Part shown: positions 1-6,860 of the stretch, in pieces | How the letters are laid out: each line of letters opens with the position of its first letter | Numbering within the stretch: position 1 is the stretch's first letter | DNA from: a virus | Lineage: Duplodnaviria > Heunggongvirae > Uroviricota > Caudoviricetes | Length of the DNA stretch: 10,495 nt | IMG/VR virus record: IMGVR_UViG_2671181188_000007 | Strand: one strand, 5' to 3' | Position numbers and translations under genes: made by a program | Notes under the pieces: generated by a model | Told to the model about the DNA's origin: nothing | Databases searched by the model: none | Seen by the model: the letters and a program-made list of their open reading frames with translations, nothing else

Positions 1-255
1 TTAAAAAATGAGGTGTCAAAAGGAAAACTGATTGACACCGGGTTCTGTATTTTTGCCCTCAGTAAGCTGGCAATGGCGTTATCCAGTACGCTTGATTCCA
101 TCCCTTTATCCATGCAGCGACAGTTTCCTGATTTAACACCGCGCCATCTTGACCATCTGAAAACCCTTATTGCTAAGGGGGCAAATCAGTGTGCGCGGGC
201 AGGGGATAAATTACCGGATTTACTTGATGAATATATCAGAGCAACAACTGAATAA
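1..255 (+). CDS. nu1: Terminase small subunit (lambda Nu1-like), C-terminal part; 5' end lies upstream of the window
   Basis: Frame 1 is open from base 1 to the stop at 253-255. The translation (..TGFCIFALSKLAMALSSTLDSIPLSMQRQFPDLTPRHLDHLK..LPDLLDEYI..) aligns with the C-terminal ~75 aa of lambda Nu1 as I recall it (..TAFCTFVLSRIAGEIASILDGLPLSVQRRFPELENRHVDFLK..IPGLLSEYI..). It overlaps the start of the next gene, as in lambda. Confidence 0.85.
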   Translation, partial: LKNEVSKGKLIDTGFCIFALSKLAMALSSTLDSIPLSMQRQFPDLTPRHLDHLKTLIAKGANQCARAGDKLPDLLDEYIRATTE

Positions 256-2156
256 TATGATGAGCGCTGTCACAACTGCATTACAGCCCCTGATAAGGGC
301 ATTGCCGGTGACGCCAGTTGAATGGGCTGATCAAAATTATTATCTGCCTAAAGAATCTTCATATGGTGAGGGCGAATGGAAAACGCTGCCATTCCAGATC
401 GCCATCATGAACAGTATGGGGAATGATCAGATCCGCACTGTTAATCTGATTAAATCTGCCCGTGTTGGCTATACAAAGATGTTGCTGGGGGGGGGGCGGG
501 TATTTTATTGAGCATAAATCCCGAAACAGTCTGCTTTTTCAGCCCACGGATTCTGCCGCTGAAGATTTTATGAAGTCTCACGTGGAGGCGACGATTCGGA
601 ACGTGCCATGCCTGAAAGACCTTTCCCCATGGCTGGGTCGTAAACATCGTGACAATACTCTCACGCTGAAACGCTTTTCATCGGGCGTCGGTTTCTGGTG
701 CCTGGGCGGCGCTGCCGCCAAAAACTACCGTGAAAAATCCGTTGACGTGGTCTGCTATGACGAACTTTCCTCGTTCGAGCCGGATGTCGAAAAAGAGGGC
801 TCGCCAACCCTGCTGGGGGATAAGCGTATTGAGGGGTCGGTGTGGCCAAAATCCATTCGCGGCTCGACGCCTAAAATCAAAGGCACCTGCCAGATCGAAA
901 AAGCCGCTAACGAGTCGGCGCATTTTATGCGTTTTTATGTGCCCTGCCCGCACTGTGGGGAGGCGCAGTATCTGAAATTTGGCGATGAGTCCACGCCTTT
1001 TGGGCTTAAATGGGAGAAGGACAGCCCTGAAAGTGTTTTCTACCTCTGTGAACATCATGGCTGCGTGATCCATCAGTCTGAACTGGACCAGAGCAACGGG
1101 CGGTGGATCTGTGAAAACACGGGCATGTGGACCCGTGACGGTCTGACGTTTTTCAGCGCCCGGGGTGATGAAATTCCGCCGCCGCGCTCCATCATGTTCC
1201 ATATCTGGACGGCGTACAGTCCGTTCACCACCTGGGTACAGATTGTCTATGACTGGCTGGATGCACTGAAAGATCCCAACGGCCTGAAAACCTTTGTGAA
1301 CACCACGCTGGGCGAGACCTGGGAAGAGGCCGTGGGCGAAAAACTCGATCACCAGGTACTGATGGATAAGGTGGTGCGTTACACGGCGGCGGTGCCTGCC
1401 CGGGTGGTTTATCTGACGGCGGGCATTGACTCGCAGCGAAACCGTTTTGAGATGTATGTCTGGGGATGGGCTCCGGGAGAGGAAGCCTTTCTGGTGGATA
1501 AAATCATCATTATGGGGCGTCCTGATGAGGAAGAGACGCTGTTACGTGTGGATGCGGCGATCAACAAAAAATACCGCCATGCGGATGGCACCGAAATGAC
1601 TATTTCCCGTGTCTGCTGGGACACCGGGGGGATCGATGGTGAAATTGTTTATCAGAGATCAAAAAAACACGGTGTTTTCCGGGTGCTGCCGGTAAAAGGC
1701 GCATCTGTCTATGGCAAGCCGGTGATCACCATGCCAAAAACCCGCAATCAGCGGGGCGTGTATCTGTGTGAAGTGGGAACGGACACCGCAAAAGAAATTC
1801 TCTATGCCCGTATGAAAGCCGATCCCTCGCCTGCGGATGAAGCCACGTCGTATGCCATCCGTTTTCCTGATGATCCGGAGATTTTTTCGCAGACAGAGGC
1901 GCAGCAACTGGTGGCGGAAGAGCTGGTGGAGAAGTGGGAAAAAGGAAAGATGCGTCTGCTGTGGGATAACAAAAAGCGGCGTAACGAAGCGCTGGACTGC
2001 CTGGTGTATGCCTACGCGGCATTACGTGTGTCCGTGCAACGCTGGCAGCTTGATCTGGCTGTACTGGCAAAATCCCGGGAAGAAGAGACGACCCGGCCAA
2101 CCCTGAAAGAACTGGCAGCGAAGCTGTCCGGAGGAGTGAATGGTTACAGTCGCTGA
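227..2156 (+). CDS. A: Terminase large subunit (lambda gpA-like), reading frame broken by a 1-bp frameshift in a G10 run at 487-496; present as two ORFs (227..511 and 462..2156)
   Basis: ATG at 227 gives MNISEQQLNN...VEWADQNYYLPKESSYGEGEWKTLPFQIAIMN...KSARVGYTKMLLGGG, which matches the lambda gpA N-terminus (MNISNSQVN...VEWADANYYLPKESAYQEGRWETLPFQRAIMN...KSARVGYSKMLLG). The match continues in the +1 frame (ORF 462..2156: ..YFIEHKSRN...GFWCLGGAAAKNYREKSVDV...TAYSPFTTWVQIV...FVNTTLGETWE...KRRNEALDC..) through to the gpA C-terminus. Removing one G from the run restores a single ORF of lambda-like length. Confidence 0.9.
487..496. repeat. G10 homopolymer tract inside the terminase large subunit gene; site of the frameshift
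   Basis: Direct read: ctg-gggggggggg-c-ggg. Lambda-like homology is in frame 2 before the run and frame 3 after it. Confidence 0.9.
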
Positions 2157-2346
2157 ACTGCAGGCGCTGCGTCAGGCGCGCCTTGATTTATTAACCGGTA
2201 AACGGGTGGTGTCTGTCCAGAAAGATGGTCGCAGAATTGAATATACGGCGGCTTCTCTGGATGAGCTTAACCGGGCGATCAATGATGCGGAGTCGGTACT
2301 GGGGACAACCCGGCGTCGCCGTCGTCCGCTGGGAGTGAGGTTATGA
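2140..2346 (+). CDS. W: Head-tail joining / head completion protein (lambda gpW-like)
   Basis: 68-aa ORF with GGAGGAG ribosome-binding site upstream. MVTVAELQALRQARLDLLTGKRVVSVQKDGRRIEYTAASL.. matches lambda gpW (..[24 protein letters not shown]..). Its stop overlaps the portal start (ATGA). Confidence 0.9.
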   Translation: MVTVAELQALRQARLDLLTGKRVVSVQKDGRRIEYTAASLDELNRAINDAESVLGTTRRRRRPLGVRL

Positions 2347-3935
2347 AACGAACGCCTGTCCTGATTGATGTGAACGGCGTTCCGCTTCGTGAGAGTCTCA
2401 GCTACAACGGGGGCGGTGCAGGATTTGGCGGGCAAATGGCGGAGTGGTTGCCACCGGCGCAGAGTGCCGATGCGGCCCTGCTGCCCGCGTTGCGTCTGGG
2501 GAATGCCCGGGCAGATGATCTGGTGCGCAATAACGGAATAGCGGCCAATGCGGTGGCACTGCATAAGGATCACATTGTCGGGCATATGTTTCTTATCAGC
2601 TACCGTCCGAACTGGCGCTGGCTGGGGATGCGGGAGACCGCAGCAAAAAGCTTTGTCGATGAGGTGGAGGCGGCCTGGTCGGAATACGCCGAAGGGATGT
2701 CTGGCGAGATCGACGTGGAAGGAAAACGCACGTTCACGGAATTTATCCGTGAAGGTGTGGGCGTTCATGCGTTTAACGGCGAAATCTTTGTGCAGCCGGT
2801 CTGGGATACGGAAACCACGCAGTTATTCCGTACGCGTTTTAAAGCCGTGAGTCCGAAACGGGTGGACACGCCAGGACACGGTATGGGGAACCGTTTTCTG
2901 CGGGCCGGGGTGGAGGTCGATCGATATGGCCGTGCCGTTGCGTACCATATCTGTGAGGATGATTTTCCTCGCTCCGGGAGTGGACGATGGGAACGGATCC
3001 CGCGTGAACTTCCCACCGGGCGTCCGGCCATGCTGCATATTTTCGAGCCGGTGGAGGACGGGCAGACCCGTGGGGCCAACCAGTTTTACAGCGTCATGGA
3101 ACGGCTGAAGATGCTCGATTCCCTGCAGGCAACACAGCTTCAGTCGGCCATTGTGAAAGCCATGTATGCAGCGACGATTGAAAGTGACCTTGATACCGAA
3201 AAGGCCTTTGAATATATCGCCGGTGCGCCGCAGGGGCAGAAGGATAATCCGCTTATTAATATTCTGGAGAAGTTCTCCAGCTGGTATGACACGAATAACG
3301 TGACGCTGGGTGGTGTCAAAATTCCGCACCTTTTCCCCGGGGATGATCTGAAACTACAGACTGCGCAGGATTCAGACAATGGATTTTCGGCGCTTGAACA
3401 GGCGCTGCTGCGGTATATCGCCGCCGGTCTTGGCGTTTCCTACGAACAGTTGTCCCGTGATTACTCGAAGGTCAGTTATTCAAGTGCCAGGGCCTCTGCC
3501 AATGAGTCGTGGCGCTATTTTATGGGGCGGCGAAAATTTATTGCGGCCCGGCTGGCCACGCAGATGTTTTCCTACTGGCTGGAAGAGGCACTTCTTCGGG
3601 GGATTATCCGTCCGCCACGGGCGCGTTTTGATTTTTATCAGGCGCGATCAGCCTGGTCACGGGCAGAGTGGATTGGTGCCGGAAGAATGGCCATTGACGG
3701 GCTCAAGGAGGTTCAGGAATCGGTGATGCGCATTGAGGCCGGACTGAGCACGTATGAGAAAGAGCCGGCGCTGATGGGCGAGGATTATCAGGACATTTTC
3801 CGCCAGCAGGTCAGGGAATCTGCAGAGCGGCAAAAAGCCGGACTCTCACGTCCGGTGTGGATAGCGCAGGCGTATCAGCAGCAGATAGCGGAGAGTCGCA
3901 GGCCGGAAGAGGAGACAACACCCCGTGAGACGTAA
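2343..3935 (+). CDS. B: Portal protein (lambda gpB-like)
   Basis: 530-aa ORF in the position and of the size of lambda gpB (533 aa), immediately after W and before the protease/scaffold gene. The start overlaps the W stop. Confidence 0.9.
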   Translation: MKRTPVLIDVNGVPLRESLSYNGGGAGFGGQMAEWLPPAQSADAALLPALRLGNARADDLVRNNGIAANAVALHKDHIVGHMFLISYRPNWRWLGMRETAAKSFVDEVEAAWSEYAEGMSGEIDVEGKRTFTEFIREGVGVHAFNGEIFVQPVWDTETTQLFRTRFKAVSPKRVDTPGHGMGNRFLRAGVEVDRYGRAVAYHICEDDFPRSGSGRWERIPRELPTGRPAMLHIFEPVEDGQTRGANQFYSVMERLKMLDSLQATQLQSAIVKAMYAATIESDLDTEKAFEYIAGAPQGQKDNPLINILEKFSSWYDTNNVTLGGVKIPHLFPGDDLKLQTAQDSDNGFSALEQALLRYIAAGLGVSYEQLSRDYSKVSYSSARASANESWRYFMGRRKFIAARLATQMFSYWLEEALLRGIIRPPRARFDFYQARSAWSRAEWIGAGRMAIDGLKEVQESVMRIEAGLSTYEKEPALMGEDYQDIFRQQVRESAERQKAGLSRPVWIAQAYQQQIAESRRPEEETTPRET

Positions 3936-5430
3936 TCTTTCACACATTATTGCCGCAGCATTCAATGAACCGCTGCTTCTGGAGCCCGCCTATGCGCGGG
4001 TTTTCTTTTGCGCGCTCGGGCGCGAGATGGGGGCAGCAAGTCTTTCGGTACCACAGCAGCAGGTACAGCTTGATGCTCCCGGAATGCTGGCTGAAACGGA
4101 CGAGTACATGGCCGGAGGTAAACGACCGGCCCGTGTTTACCGGGTGGTGAACGGTATTGCTGTACTGCCGGTGACCGGCACGCTGGTGCACCGGCTGGGG
4201 GGTATGCGGCCATTTTCCGGAATGACAGGCTATGACGGCATTGTCGCCTGTCTTCAGCAGGCAATGGCGGATAGCCAGGTGCGGGGCGTACTGCTGGACA
4301 TTGACAGTCCGGGCGGGCAGGCCGCCGGCGCGTTTGACTGCGCTGACATGATTTACCGCCTCCGTCAGCAGAAGCCGGTCTGGGCACTGTGCAATGACAC
4401 GGCCTGTTCTGCAGCCATGCTGCTGGCGTCGGCCTGCTCCCGACGGCTGGTTACCCAGACATCCCGTATCGGCTCCATTGGCGTGATGATGAGCCATGTC
4501 AGCTATGCCGGTCATCTGGCGCAGGCCGGTGTGGATATCACGCTGATTTACTCAGGGGCGCACAAGGTGGATGGCAATCAGTTTGAAGCCTTACCGGCAG
4601 AGGTTCGCCAGAACATGCAGCAGCGCATTGATGCGGCGCGCCGGATGTTTGCCGAAAAAGTGGCCATGTTTACCGGTCTGTCTGTTGATGCCGTCACGGG
4701 AACAGAGGCCGCCGTTTTTGAAGGTCAGTCCGGCATTGATGCCGGGCTGGCGGATGAATTAGTCAATGCGTCGGATGCCATCAGTGTGATGGCCACGGCG
4801 CTGAACAGTAATGTCAGAGGAGGCACTATGCCGCAATTAACTGCAACGGAAGCCGCCGCGCAGGAGAACCAGCGAGTGATGGGGATCCTGACATGCCAGG
4901 AAGCGAAAGGACGTGAACAGCTTGCCACGATGCTGGCAGGACAACAGGGCATGAGCGTTGAACAGGCCCGGGCGATTCTGGCCGCGGCGGCACCGCAGCA
5001 GCCGGTGGCATCCACGCAGAGTGAAGCCGATCGCATTATGGCGTGTGAAGAAGCGAACGGTCGTGAACAACTGGCGGCAACGCTGGCGGCGATGCCGGAG
5101 ATGACGGTGGAAAAAGCCCGCCCGATCCTGGCTGCTTCACCGCAGGCGGATGCCGGACCCTCACTCCGTGATCAGATCATGGCACTGGATGAGGCAAAAG
5201 GGGCTGAGGCGCAGGCTGAACAGCTGGCTGCCTGCCCGGGAATGACTGTGGAGAGCGCCCGGGCTGTGCTGGCTGCGGGATCAGGTAAGGCAGAACCGGT
5301 CTCTGCATCCACAACCGCCCTGTTTGAACGCATCATGGCGAACCATTCACCGGCTGCGGTACAGGGTGGCGTGCCACAGACGTCAGCAGACGGTGATGCG
5401 GACGTGAAAATGCTCATGGCCATGCCATGA
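3925..5430 (+). CDS. C: Head maturation protease / scaffold (lambda gpC-like, ClpP/S49-type serine peptidase fold) with C-terminal scaffolding region
   Basis: GTG start at 3925 preceded by GAGGAG at about 3908-3913. The N-terminus ..AAFNEPLLLEPAYARVFFCAL.. matches lambda gpC (..MAFNEPLMLEPAYARVFFCAL..). The centre (GIAVLPVTGTLV...LLDIDSPGG...AGAFDCADMI...KPVWAL...SRRLVTQTSRIGSIGVMM...ITLIYSGAHKVDGN) is the conserved peptidase core. The start codon is less certain than the gene call. Confidence 0.88.
   Translation: MRRNLSHIIAAAFNEPLLLEPAYARVFFCALGREMGAASLSVPQQQVQLDAPGMLAETDEYMAGGKRPARVYRVVNGIAVLPVTGTLVHRLGGMRPFSGMTGYDGIVACLQQAMADSQVRGVLLDIDSPGGQAAGAFDCADMIYRLRQQKPVWALCNDTACSAAMLLASACSRRLVTQTSRIGSIGVMMSHVSYAGHLAQAGVDITLIYSGAHKVDGNQFEALPAEVRQNMQQRIDAARRMFAEKVAMFTGLSVDAVTGTEAAVFEGQSGIDAGLADELVNASDAISVMATALNSNVRGGTMPQLTATEAAAQENQRVMGILTCQEAKGREQLATMLAGQQGMSVEQARAILAAAAPQQPVASTQSEADRIMACEEANGREQLAATLAAMPEMTVEKARPILAASPQADAGPSLRDQIMALDEAKGAEAQAEQLAACPGMTVESARAVLAAGSGKAEPVSASTTALFERIMANHSPAAVQGGVPQTSADGDADVKMLMAMP
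4828..5430 (+). CDS. nu3: Nu3-like scaffolding protein, nested in-frame within the 3' part of gene C
   Basis: In-frame ATG at 4828 with a strong Shine-Dalgarno GAGGAGG at 4816-4822 lying inside the C reading frame. Same arrangement as lambda C/Nu3. The product corresponds to the repeat-containing C-terminal region. Confidence 0.6.
   Translation: MPQLTATEAAAQENQRVMGILTCQEAKGREQLATMLAGQQGMSVEQARAILAAAAPQQPVASTQSEADRIMACEEANGREQLAATLAAMPEMTVEKARPILAASPQADAGPSLRDQIMALDEAKGAEAQAEQLAACPGMTVESARAVLAAGSGKAEPVSASTTALFERIMANHSPAAVQGGVPQTSADGDADVKMLMAMP
4873..5292 (+). repeat. Three diverged tandem copies of a ~47-53-aa scaffold module within C/Nu3 (intragenic protein-level repeat)
   Basis: Translation shows RVMGILTCQEAKGREQLATMLAGQQGMSVEQARAILAAAAPQ / RIMACEEANGREQLAATLAAMPEMTVEKARPILAASPQA / QIMALDEAKGAEAQAEQLAACPGMTVESARAVLAAGSGK. 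Unit starts are near 4873, 5032 and 5173. Boundaries are approximate. Confidence 0.7.
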
Positions 5431-5466
5431 AGTCAGTGCTGACCATCAACAGGAGGTTTTTACAAT

Positions 5467-5814
5467 ATGGTAACGAAAAACATCACTGAACAGCGTGCGG
5501 AAGTACGTATTTTTGCCGGTAATGATCCGGCTCATACCGCCACAGGCAGCAGCGGGATTTCCTCGGCAACACCGGCACTGACGCCCCTGATGCTGGATGA
5601 AGCCAGCGGGAAACTGGTGGTCTGGGACGGACAGAAAGCCGGTAGTGCAGTTGGCATACTGGTACTGCCGCTTGAAGGCACAGAGACGGTACTGACCTAT
5701 TACAAGTCGGGGACCTTTGCGACGGAGGCAATCCGCTGGCCTGAAAGTGTGGATGAACACAAAAAGGCAAATGCCTTTGCCGGCAGTGCCCTGAGTCACG
5801 CGGCGCTGCCGTAA
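5467..5814 (+). CDS. D: Head decoration protein (lambda gpD-like)
   Basis: 115-aa ORF with AGGAGG ribosome-binding site upstream. ..NDPAHTAT...TPLMLD...KLVVWDG...AVGIL...YYKSGTF...AFAG.. matches lambda gpD motifs (..SDPAHTAT..TPLMLD..KLVAWDG..AVGIL..FYKSGTF..AFAG..). Confidence 0.92.
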   Translation: MVTKNITEQRAEVRIFAGNDPAHTATGSSGISSATPALTPLMLDEASGKLVVWDGQKAGSAVGILVLPLEGTETVLTYYKSGTFATEAIRWPESVDEHKKANAFAGSALSHAALP

Positions 5815-5871: not shown

Positions 5872-6138
5872 ATGGGATTGTTTACGACCCGCCAGTTACT
5901 CGGTTATACCGAACAAAAAGTGAAATTTCGTGCGCTGTTTCTGGAGCTGTTTTTCCGCCGTACGGTGAATTTCCATACCGAAGAGGTGATGCTGGACAAA
6001 ATTACCGGAAAAACGCCGGTGGCGGCCTATGTCTCTCCGGTTGTTGAAGGAAAAGTGCTGCGTCATCGCGGTGGTGAAACCCGCGTGTTACGTCCGGGCT
6101 ACGTCAAGCCGAAACACGAATTCCCCTGGAGCCGGTAA
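5872..6138 (+). pseudogene. E: Major capsid protein (lambda gpE-like), N-terminal ~83 codons only; truncated by a deletion
   Basis: ATG at 5872 with an RBS. MGLFTTRQLLGYTEQKVKFRALFLELFF...[31 protein letters not shown] matches the lambda gpE N-terminus (MSMYTTAQLLAANEQKFKFDPLFLRLFF...[31 protein letters not shown]). Homology stops at KPKHE and the ORF ends 5 codons later; lambda gpE is ~341 aa. Confidence 0.85.
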
Positions 6139-6860
6139 AAGGAGCCGGTACCACCCTGTGGGTTTATAACGGTCAGGGTGACGCCTATGCAAACCCGTTG
6201 TCAGACGATGACTGGCAGCGACTGGCTAAGGTGAAGGATCTGACGCCGGGCGAGATGACGGCAGAATCCTACGATGATAACTACCTGGATGATGAAGACG
6301 CGGACTGGACCGCGACCGGGCAGGGGCAGAAATCTGCAGGTGATACCAGTTTTACGCTGGCCTGGAAACCGGGAGAGGAAGGCCAGAAAGGGCTTATAGG
6401 CTGGTTTGAAAGCGGCGATGTCCGGGCCTATAAAATCCGTTTTCCGAATGGCACGGTGGATGTGTTTCGTGGCTGGGTCAGCAGTATCGGTAAGGCCGTG
6501 ACGGCGAAAGAAGTGATCACCCGCACGGTGAAAGTCACTAACGTGGGTAAACCTTCTGTAGCGGAAGAACGCAGCAAAATTACGCCGGTCAGTGCGATTA
6601 AGGTGACGCCGACATCCGGTACGGTGGCAAAAGGGAAAACAACCACCCTGACGGTTTCTTTTGAGCCGGAAAGTGCAACCGACAAGACGTTCAGAGCGGT
6701 TTCCGCCGATCCGTCGAAAGCCACCATTAGTGTGAAAGATATGACAATTACGGTAAACGGCGTGGCGACAGGTAAGGTGCAGATCCCTGTGGTGAGCGGA
6801 AATGGTCAGTTCGCCGCAGTGGCTGAAGTCACCGTTACTGAAGCGGGCGCTGCAGGGTAA
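6126..6860 (+). CDS. V: Major tail protein (lambda gpV-like) with C-terminal Ig-like domain; lacks its native start and first ~8 codons (ORF track picks TTG at 6198)
   Basis: Frame 3 reads ..[78 protein letters not shown]...[41 protein letters not shown]...[28 protein letters not shown]. This is near-identical to lambda gpV from residue ~9 ([37 protein letters not shown]...). There is no in-frame ATG or GTG upstream before the stop at 6075-6077. Confidence 0.85.

What the first reader, a model, noticed from the sequence alone, without database searches (positions are those of the whole stretch)
4810..4835. Strong internal ribosome-binding site and in-frame ATG inside gene C marks a nested Nu3-like scaffold gene
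GAGGAGG at 4816-4822 followed by ATG at 4828 lies inside, and in frame with, the protease/scaffold ORF. This is the lambda C/Nu3 arrangement, where an internal start makes a separate scaffolding protein identical to the C-terminus of gpC. An ORF finder reports only the long ORF, so this gene is easily missed.
Basis: partly seen in the sequence, partly recalled or inferred. Interest (0 to 1): 0.4.

Follow-up and report, generated by a model that had tools for sequence, protein, structure and literature searches.

The report
Nested scaffold gene inside prohead protease
The internal ribosome-binding site and ATG are real and mark the start of a scaffolding-protein gene nested inside the head-protease gene, but phage 21 (98.6% identical here) has had exactly this gene annotated for decades, so the finding is correct and ordinary.

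Summary
Confirmed and already known. ATG lies at 4828-4830, in frame with the 501-codon ORF 3925-5430. Read from that ATG, the product is 200 aa.

The window is a defective lambdoid prophage of E. coli O157:H7. Its gene is 98.6% identical to phage 21 gene 5. GenBank M81255 and OL657228 annotate nested gene 6 (scaffold) at exactly this ATG, with this RBS.

The motif alone is not above chance in the window. Comparison settles it. In 50 homologues below 90% identity (down to 34%), the aligned column is Met in 49. An SD core lies upstream in 48 of 50, against 3.9% of other internal ATGs. The Gly three codons upstream uses GGA in 37 of 39 cases, against 9% elsewhere. The start lies nine codons after the S49 protease domain.

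One twist: the RefSeq lambda nu3 start (5132, Met239) does not align with this site. Lambda's conserved AGGAGG-N4-ATG at 5342 (Met309) does, as does phi80 gene 6.

RefSeq's annotation of a 100%-identical O157:H7 chromosome omits the nested gene. No expression data were available.

The parts
3925..5430 (+). Long ORF (501 aa, GTG start): gpC / phage 21 gp5-type prohead protease fused to a C-terminal scaffold domain
   Evidence: ORF list and translation. Pfam Peptidase_S49 2.8e-35. 98% aa identity to phage 21 gp5 and 59% to lambda gpC. PGAP name 'S49 family peptidase'.
4360..4803 (+). S49 (SppA-like) serine protease domain, residues 146-293 of the long ORF
   Evidence: Pfam PF01343, 122 bits, profile positions 3-151 of 154. 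PDB sequence matches to SppA over query residues 77-290.
4817..4823 (+). Shine-Dalgarno sequence GAGGAGG (core GGAGG 4819-4823), encoded by codons AGA-GGA-GGC (Arg-Gly-Gly)
   Evidence: Anti-SD duplex -12.0 kcal/mol, the best of 39 internal candidates. Annotated as the RBS of gene 6 in phage 21. GGAGG is invariant in 55 distinct close alleles. GGAG/GAGG is present in 48 of 50 divergent homologues, and GGA codon use is 37/39 against a 9% background.
4828..4830 (+). Internal in-frame ATG start codon (codon 302 of the long ORF)
   Evidence: Same codon as the phage 21 gene 6 start. The aligned column is Met in 49 of 50 homologues, and each has an ATG within 15 residues of the column.
4828..5430 (+). 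Nested gene (200 aa, 20.5 kDa, pI 4.6, 23% Ala): Nu3 / phage 21 gp6-type scaffolding protein, identical to the C-terminal 200 residues of the long product
   Evidence: Phage 21 annotation. PHROGs head scaffolding protein phrog_8399, 8.5e-36. Homology to the conserved unit of lambda Nu3. The exact 200-aa sequence is on record on 95 contigs. Mass and pI.
4895..4998 (+). Repeat unit 1 ('Tri1 box' of M81255), about 35-45 aa, predicted helical
   Evidence: Coordinates transferred from M81255 (offset +924). Repeat alignment. Predicted helices.
5035..5145 (+). Repeat unit 2 ('Tri box')
5176..5289 (+). Repeat unit 3 ('Tri3 box')
2343..3935 (+). Portal gene (gpB type). It overlaps the start of the long ORF by 11 nt.
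   Evidence: Pfam Phage_portal_2, 4.8e-101. Annotation.
5467..5814 (+). Head decoration gene (gpD/shp type), immediately downstream
   Evidence: Pfam HDPD, 4.2e-24..

Best explanation
One DNA segment, 3925-5430, encodes two proteins in the same frame. Ribosomes that start at the GTG at 3925 make a 501-aa protein with an S49 serine protease domain followed by a scaffold domain. That GTG overlaps the end of the portal gene. Ribosomes that bind the strong internal Shine-Dalgarno GAGGAGG (4817-4823) start at ATG 4828, nine codons after the protease domain. They make only the 200-aa acidic, alanine-rich, helical scaffold protein.

By analogy with lambda C/Nu3 and phage 21 gp5/gp6, the short protein would be made in excess and would chaperone polymerisation of the major capsid protein on the portal. 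The long protein would co-assemble through the identical C-terminal domain, which would carry a few protease copies into the prohead. The protease would then degrade the scaffold so that DNA can be packaged.

Shown here: the sequence anatomy, the identity with the annotated phage 21 gene 6 start, and deep conservation of the SD and ATG with synonymous-codon evidence.

Inferred: actual internal initiation, the stoichiometry and the assembly role.

In this particular prophage the system is probably not functional for its own capsid. The major capsid gene is cut after 88 codons and the large terminase gene is frameshifted.
For: 1. Exact positional identity with annotated nested gene 6 and its RBS in phage 21, which is 98.6% identical at the nucleotide level.
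2. The start lies just past the end of the Pfam S49 domain: residue 293 against 302.
3. It is the best internal SD-start of the ORF at -12.0 against -7.4 kcal/mol. It is stronger than the SDs of W, B, C, D and E in the window, and the long ORF uses GTG.
4. In 50 homologues below 90% identity, from Enterobacteriaceae to Vibrio, Aeromonas, Pseudomonas and Marinobacter (34-72% identity to the window), the aligned column is Met in 49 of 50. The site is the top-ranked internal SD-start in 34 of 50.
5. GGAG/GAGG lies upstream in 48 of 50, against 28 of 720 (3.9%) other internal ATGs.
6. The Gly codon three codons upstream of the ATG is GGA in 37 of 39, against 9% GGA elsewhere in the same ORFs. The GGAG-to-ATG spacer varies (2, 5, 8 or 11 nt) while the residues encoded over the SD differ between homologues. 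This fits a nucleotide signal better than a peptide motif.
7. The phi80 record annotates gene 6 as an 'internal in-frame translational start within gene 5' at the same column.
8. The C-terminal part matches PHROGs 'head scaffolding protein' and the conserved unit of lambda Nu3.
9. All 55 distinct close alleles keep GGAGG, the ATG and an intact ORF.
Against: No expression data (Ribo-seq, N-terminal proteomics) were available for this prophage or for phage 21. Papers with lambda Nu3 biochemistry were not held in the library.

The motif is not significant in the window alone.

The homologues are phylogenetically related, so the Fisher and Mann-Whitney p-values overstate independence.

The RefSeq lambda nu3 coordinate does not correspond.

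The prophage is defective, with E truncated and the large terminase gene frameshifted. Function in situ is therefore doubtful.

The AlphaFold model of the 200-aa product is low confidence, pLDDT 57.6.
Confidence: 0.9

Rival explanations
1. There is no separate gene. The scaffold fragment arises only by autoproteolysis of the 501-aa protein. The GGAGG-ATG simply encodes a conserved Gly-Gly-x-Met linker at the domain boundary.
For: Gly-Gly-x-Met is conserved as a peptide in the closest relatives. Head proteases of this class do process themselves (general knowledge of lambda gpC, not tested here).
Against: Synonymous choice is extreme: GGA in 37 of 39 against 9% elsewhere. In more distant homologues the residues over the SD change (Gly-Val, Gly-Ala and others) and the spacer shifts to 8 or 11 nt, yet GGAG is kept. 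The start codon is always ATG. Independent annotators of phage 21 and phi80 call an internal start here.
Confidence: 0.05
2. The SD-like sequence is a chance match or a translational pause site inside the gene, with no initiation function.
For: The motif count in the window is within chance. No unusual RNA structure surrounds it, z = -0.94.
Against: A chance match would not be kept at one aligned column in 48-50 of 50 homologues down to 34% identity. A pause site does not need an ATG 5 nt downstream in every lineage.
Confidence: 0.03
3. The nested gene starts elsewhere, at the position equivalent to the RefSeq lambda nu3 start (gpC residue 239) or at GTG318/ATG319 of the window ORF.
For: NC_001416, HK630 and phage 434 records put nu3 at Met239. 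Lambda imm21 puts it at a GTG near residue 207. Window GTG318/ATG319 have a moderate SD of -7.4.
Against: The window has Ile at the Met239 column, and that column is Met in only 5 of 50 homologues. Lambda Met239 has an SD of -2.7 kcal/mol, against -10.8 for Met309. The phage 434 record carries a note beginning 'real Nu3 start ...', which is cut off in the tool output.
Confidence: 0.02

Closest known systems
Phage 21 genes 5 and 6 (GenBank M81255; OL657228)
   Same: 98.6% nucleotide identity over the whole gene. Same 501-codon ORF with a GTG start, same internal RBS and ATG at codon 302, same 200-aa nested product and the same three 'Tri box' repeats.
   Different: About 2% of residues differ. 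The window copy sits in a defective O157:H7 prophage that lacks most of the major capsid gene and the FI-U genes. The nested gene is not annotated in the 100%-identical O157:H7 RefSeq chromosome examined.
Lambda C / Nu3
   Same: S49 protease fused to a scaffold domain (59% identity), between portal B and decoration D. Lambda has a conserved AGGAGG-N4-ATG at 5342 (gpC Met309) in the same alignment column, and one copy of the conserved scaffold unit.
   Different: Lambda's nested product from the conserved site is 131 aa with one repeat unit and a 36-aa acidic insertion. The window's is 200 aa with three units. The RefSeq-annotated nu3 start (5132, Met239, 201 aa) is at a non-corresponding position inside the protease domain.
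phi80 genes 5 and 6 (FN582354)
   Same: Annotated 'internal in-frame translational start within gene 5' at residue 311, in the same column, with a GGAGG SD.
   Different: 137-aa product with a single repeat unit. 52% identity to the window's long ORF.
Herpesvirus UL26 / UL26.5 protease-scaffold pair (from general knowledge, not tested here)
   Same: Same logic: a protease-scaffold fusion and an abundant scaffold that shares its C-terminus, encoded in frame within one ORF.
   Different: The nested product comes from a separate internal promoter and mRNA, not an internal SD on the same mRNA. The protease fold is unrelated. No sequence homology was examined.

Membership tests
Lambda C/Nu3-type (phage 21 gp5/gp6-type) nested protease-scaffold gene pair | N-terminal S49 (SppA-like) serine protease domain | tested here: met
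   Pfam PF01343, 2.8e-35, residues 146-293. PDB SppA hits.
Lambda C/Nu3-type (phage 21 gp5/gp6-type) nested protease-scaffold gene pair | C-terminal domain homologous to the Nu3/gp6 scaffold | tested here: met
   Alignments with lambda, phi80 and phage 21. PHROGs phrog_8399 'head scaffolding protein', 8.5e-36, matched in 3 stretches.
Lambda C/Nu3-type (phage 21 gp5/gp6-type) nested protease-scaffold gene pair | In-frame internal start codon with its own SD at the protease/scaffold boundary | tested here: met
   Identical to the annotated gene 6 start of phage 21 and in the same column as phi80 gene 6.
Lambda C/Nu3-type (phage 21 gp5/gp6-type) nested protease-scaffold gene pair | Position in the head operon: after portal (B), before decoration (D) and major capsid (E) | tested here: met
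   Pfam domains of the neighbours and the PGAP annotation.
Lambda C/Nu3-type (phage 21 gp5/gp6-type) nested protease-scaffold gene pair | Start corresponds to the database-annotated lambda nu3 start (NC_001416 5132) | tested here: not met
   Lambda Met239 aligns with window Ile inside the protease domain. The corresponding lambda site is ATG 5342 (Met309), which has the conserved SD. This is judged to be a problem of the lambda annotation, not of membership.
Lambda C/Nu3-type (phage 21 gp5/gp6-type) nested protease-scaffold gene pair | The short protein is translated independently of the long one and acts as a prohead scaffold | not testable with these tools
   No expression or genetic data could be reached. 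The lambda papers (Medina 2010 and 2011; Liu 2013) are not held.

The most novel reading that the evidence does not exclude
The standard lambda reference annotation of nu3 (5132-5737, 201 aa, copied into RefSeq, HK630 and 434) may be wrong. On this reading the true scaffold start throughout this protease-scaffold family is the conserved SD+ATG immediately after the S49 domain. That is lambda 5342, giving 131 aa and 13,394 Da, and it equals window 4828.

If so, the nested gene is systematically missing or mis-started in thousands of E. coli and Salmonella prophage annotations.

A weaker add-on concerns the copy number of the roughly 45-aa scaffold unit. Phage 21-type products have three copies and lambda-type products have one. 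Copy number might tune scaffold valency. Its function is listed as unknown in M81255.
Probability: 0.8. Interest if true: 0.25.

Novelty: already known. Interest (0 to 1): 0.12.

Why it matters
This is mainly an annotation matter. The scaffold gene is essential for head assembly in lambda (CRISPRi and literature table in PMC10695390). Even so, PGAP and most phage annotations of this gene give one CDS only. Lambda-type records carry at least two different nested starts, 5132 and about 5036. The product from a third site, the conserved 5342, is on record only as 'hypothetical protein'.

The comparative result gives a simple rule for annotating the nested gene in S49 protease-scaffold fusions of lambdoid phages: Met in 49 of 50 homologues, an SD in 48 of 50, and GGA codon bias. 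It has no wider biological surprise. In this window the prophage is defective.

Tried and rejected
1. Window-only statistics for the SD+ATG motif were not significant, so the case rests on comparison.
2. The first viral-contig scan gave only 98-100% identical loci. These served for allele invariance but not for deep conservation. An alignment-based scan of genome contigs was needed. Many of its loci in unrelated taxa carry a protein identical to lambda gpC. I take these to be lambda DNA in those assemblies, and they were collapsed before analysis.
3. The literature on the experimental lambda Nu3 start was not held: Medina 2010 and 2011, Casjens and Hendrix 2015, Liu 2013 Ribo-seq, and Liu and Mushegian 2004. 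Open-access papers mention Nu3 without a start coordinate.
4. Tandem Repeats Finder found no DNA repeat in the nested gene. The three units are visible only at the protein level.
5. RNA folding around the start shows no special structure, z = -0.94.
6. The TTGCN6TTGC 'CII box' annotated in OL657228 on the minus strand at the nested start (window 4833-4846) is at chance level, 2 found against 1.76 expected.
7. The search for homologues of the 200-aa product returned mostly fragmentary 'S49 family peptidase, partial' clusters.
8. The AlphaFold2 model of the 200-aa product had pLDDT 57.6 and pTM 0.23, too low for a fold search, so none was run.

Full report
**Observation**

The sequence reads ...aatgtcAGAGGAGGcactATGccgcaa....
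- ATG is at 4828-4830.
- The ATG is codon 302 of the only long ORF here, 3925..5430 (501 aa, GTG start).
- Read from the ATG, the product is 200 aa.
- The mechanical ORF list shows only the long ORF.

The motif alone is not above chance in the window. GGAGG-N3-9-ATG occurs 7 times against 3.5 expected, and 9 of 200 shuffles reach 7. GAGGAGG occurs 2 times against 1.5 expected.

Within the ORF the site stands out. Of 39 in-frame ATG/GTG/TTG candidates it has by far the best anti-SD pairing, -12.0 kcal/mol against -7.4 for the next. It also has the strongest SD of all head-gene starts in the window:

| Gene start | Anti-SD duplex (kcal/mol) |
|---|---|
| W | -9.5 |
| B | -6.8 |
| C (GTG start) | -9.1 |
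| D | -11.0 |
| E | -5.6 |
| Nested ATG 4828 | -12.0 |

**What the region is**

The window matches E. coli O157:H7 chromosomes at 100% identity. There it is part of a lambdoid prophage with this gene order:
- small terminase subunit, just upstream of the window, and a frameshifted large subunit;
- head-tail joining protein, portal, 'S49 family peptidase' and head decoration protein;
- a major capsid gene 'incomplete, missing C-terminus';
- tail genes (Pfam checks).

The long ORF has a Peptidase_S49 domain at residues 146-293. Residues 77-290 match SppA structures. The internal start therefore lies nine codons past the protease domain.

**It is the phage 21 gene 5 / gene 6 pair**

The ORF is 98.6% identical in DNA to phage 21. 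GenBank M81255 annotates gene 5 over the whole ORF. It annotates a nested gene 6 whose start maps exactly to window 4828, and an RBS that maps to 4817-4821. It also marks three 'Tri box' repeats of unknown function. The independent complete genome OL657228 annotates the same nested CDS as 'scaffolding protein'.

**Comparison with lambda**

The RefSeq nu3 start (5132, gpC Met239) does not correspond:
- It aligns inside the protease domain, opposite Ile in the window.
- It has an SD of only -2.7 kcal/mol.
- Its column is Met in only 5 of 50 homologues.

Lambda does have AGGAGG-N4-ATG at 5342 (gpC Met309). This is the best internal SD-start in lambda C at -10.8 kcal/mol. It falls in exactly the same alignment column as window Met302.

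Other records bear on this:
- The phi80 record annotates gene 6 as an 'internal in-frame translational start within gene 5' in the same column.
- Lambda-type records are inconsistent. They give 5132 (NC_001416, HK630, 434) or a GTG near 5036 (lambda imm21).
- The phage 434 record carries a note beginning 'real Nu3 start ...', which the tool cuts off.
- PHROGs holds both a 131-position 'head scaffolding protein' family and a 201-position 'capsid assembly protein' family.
- The 131-aa lambda product would weigh 13,394 Da. From memory, which I could not verify because the papers are not held, this matches the mass used for purified gpNu3 by the Catalano laboratory.

I conclude that the mismatch lies in the lambda annotation, not in the window.

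**Is the site selected?**

I collected homologues from phage records and from one genome per species. I collapsed them to 50 representatives below 90% identity. These are 34-72% identical to the window and range from Enterobacteriaceae to Aeromonas, Vibrio, Photobacterium, Pseudomonas, Marinobacter and others.

| Measure | Boundary site | Control |
|---|---|---|
| Met in the aligned column | 49 of 50 | - |
| ATG within 15 residues of the column | 50 of 50 | - |
| Top-ranked internal SD-start of its ORF | 34 of 50 | - |
| GGAG/GAGG upstream of the ATG | 48 of 50 | 28 of 720 (3.9%) other internal in-frame ATGs |
| Gly three codons upstream encoded by GGA | 37 of 39 | 9% of Gly codons elsewhere in the same ORFs |

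The spacer between GGAG and ATG varies (2, 5, 8 or 11 nt), and the residues encoded over the SD change between homologues. A conserved peptide would not explain this; a conserved ribosome-binding site does.

Among 55 distinct close alleles, GGAGG and ATG never vary and every ORF is intact. The sequences are related, so the formal p-values overstate independence. Even so, synonymous sites are saturated at these divergences.

**The product**

The 200-aa protein is acidic (pI 4.6) and 23% alanine. It contains three diverged units of about 45 aa. The second and third are 50% and 43% identical to the first, and the single unit of lambda Nu3 is 58% identical to it. AlphaFold2 predicts short helices joined by low-confidence linkers (pLDDT 57.6). 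This fits a flexible scaffold but is too weak for a fold search.

**Mechanism**

The mechanism is inferred from the lambda and phage 21 paradigm. A strong SD with ATG gives abundant scaffold. A GTG start overlapping the portal stop gives the protease-scaffold fusion; that it is made in lower amounts is inferred, not measured. The shared C-terminal domain would bring the protease into the prohead, where it would remove the scaffold.

**Context caveat**

This prophage cannot build its own head.
- Homology to phage 21 ends at about window 6122.
- The capsid gene stops after 88 codons and runs into the tail tube gene (6120-6860). FI, FII, Z and U are missing.
- The large terminase gene is frameshifted.
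- The tape-measure gene is interrupted.

The nested gene is intact but may be a relic, or may be useful only in trans to co-resident prophages. That last idea is speculation.

**Verdict**

It is already known. The only added value is practical. The nested gene is absent from the PGAP annotation of the O157:H7 chromosome examined and from most close phage records. The comparative data also point to lambda 5342, not 5132, as the family-wide scaffold start.

Noticed in passing
L004 (lambda NC_001416) 2533 versus 2743, i.e. lambda 5132 versus 5342; aligned to window 4828: The RefSeq lambda nu3 start (Met239, SD -2.7 kcal/mol) is not conserved: its column is Met in 5 of 50 homologues. The conserved SD+ATG is at 5342 (Met309, 131 aa, 13.4 kDa). 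Public lambda-type records annotate the nested start at 5132 or at a GTG near 5036, and the 131-aa product from 5342 is on record only as 'hypothetical protein'.
   Followed up: partly
window 5872-6138 and 6120-6860: The major capsid gene E is cut after 88 codons and abuts a complete tail tube gene (V type, 246 aa). Homology to phage 21 ends at about 6122. The FI, FII, Z and U genes are missing, so the prophage cannot make its own heads.
   Followed up: partly
window 170-511 and 462-2156: The large terminase subunit is split into two overlapping ORFs. PGAP marks it 'frameshifted' in the identical O157:H7 record.
   Followed up: no
window 7726-9246, 9487-10053; difference around 9212-9405: The tape-measure gene is interrupted by a stop at 9244-9246. 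The window is about 252 bp shorter here than the otherwise 100%-identical FRIK2455 record. Record segments of 183 bp and 99 bp are replaced by 16 bp and 14 bp in the window.
   Followed up: partly
window 4895-4998, 5035-5145, 5176-5289: The scaffold part has three diverged units of about 45 aa, predicted helical. These are the 'Tri boxes' of M81255, function unknown. Lambda, phi80 and most distant homologues have one unit. Gifsy-1 and the phage 21 type have three.
   Followed up: partly
window 4833-4846, minus strand: TTGCAGTTAATTGC matches the CII-box pattern TTGYN6TTGY just downstream of the nested start codon, and is annotated as a CII site in OL657228. The pattern count in the window is at chance, 2 found against 1.76 expected.
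   Followed up: yes
L102-L110, L125, L126, L129, L140, L148, L150, L151, L160 (genome-contig loci): Lambda-type C genes turn up on short or low-coverage contigs of unrelated taxa, including Neobacillus, Kitasatospora, Chromatium, Akkermansia and Paenibacillus. Eight loci carry a protein identical to lambda gpC. This probably reflects lambda control DNA contaminating those assemblies.
   Followed up: no
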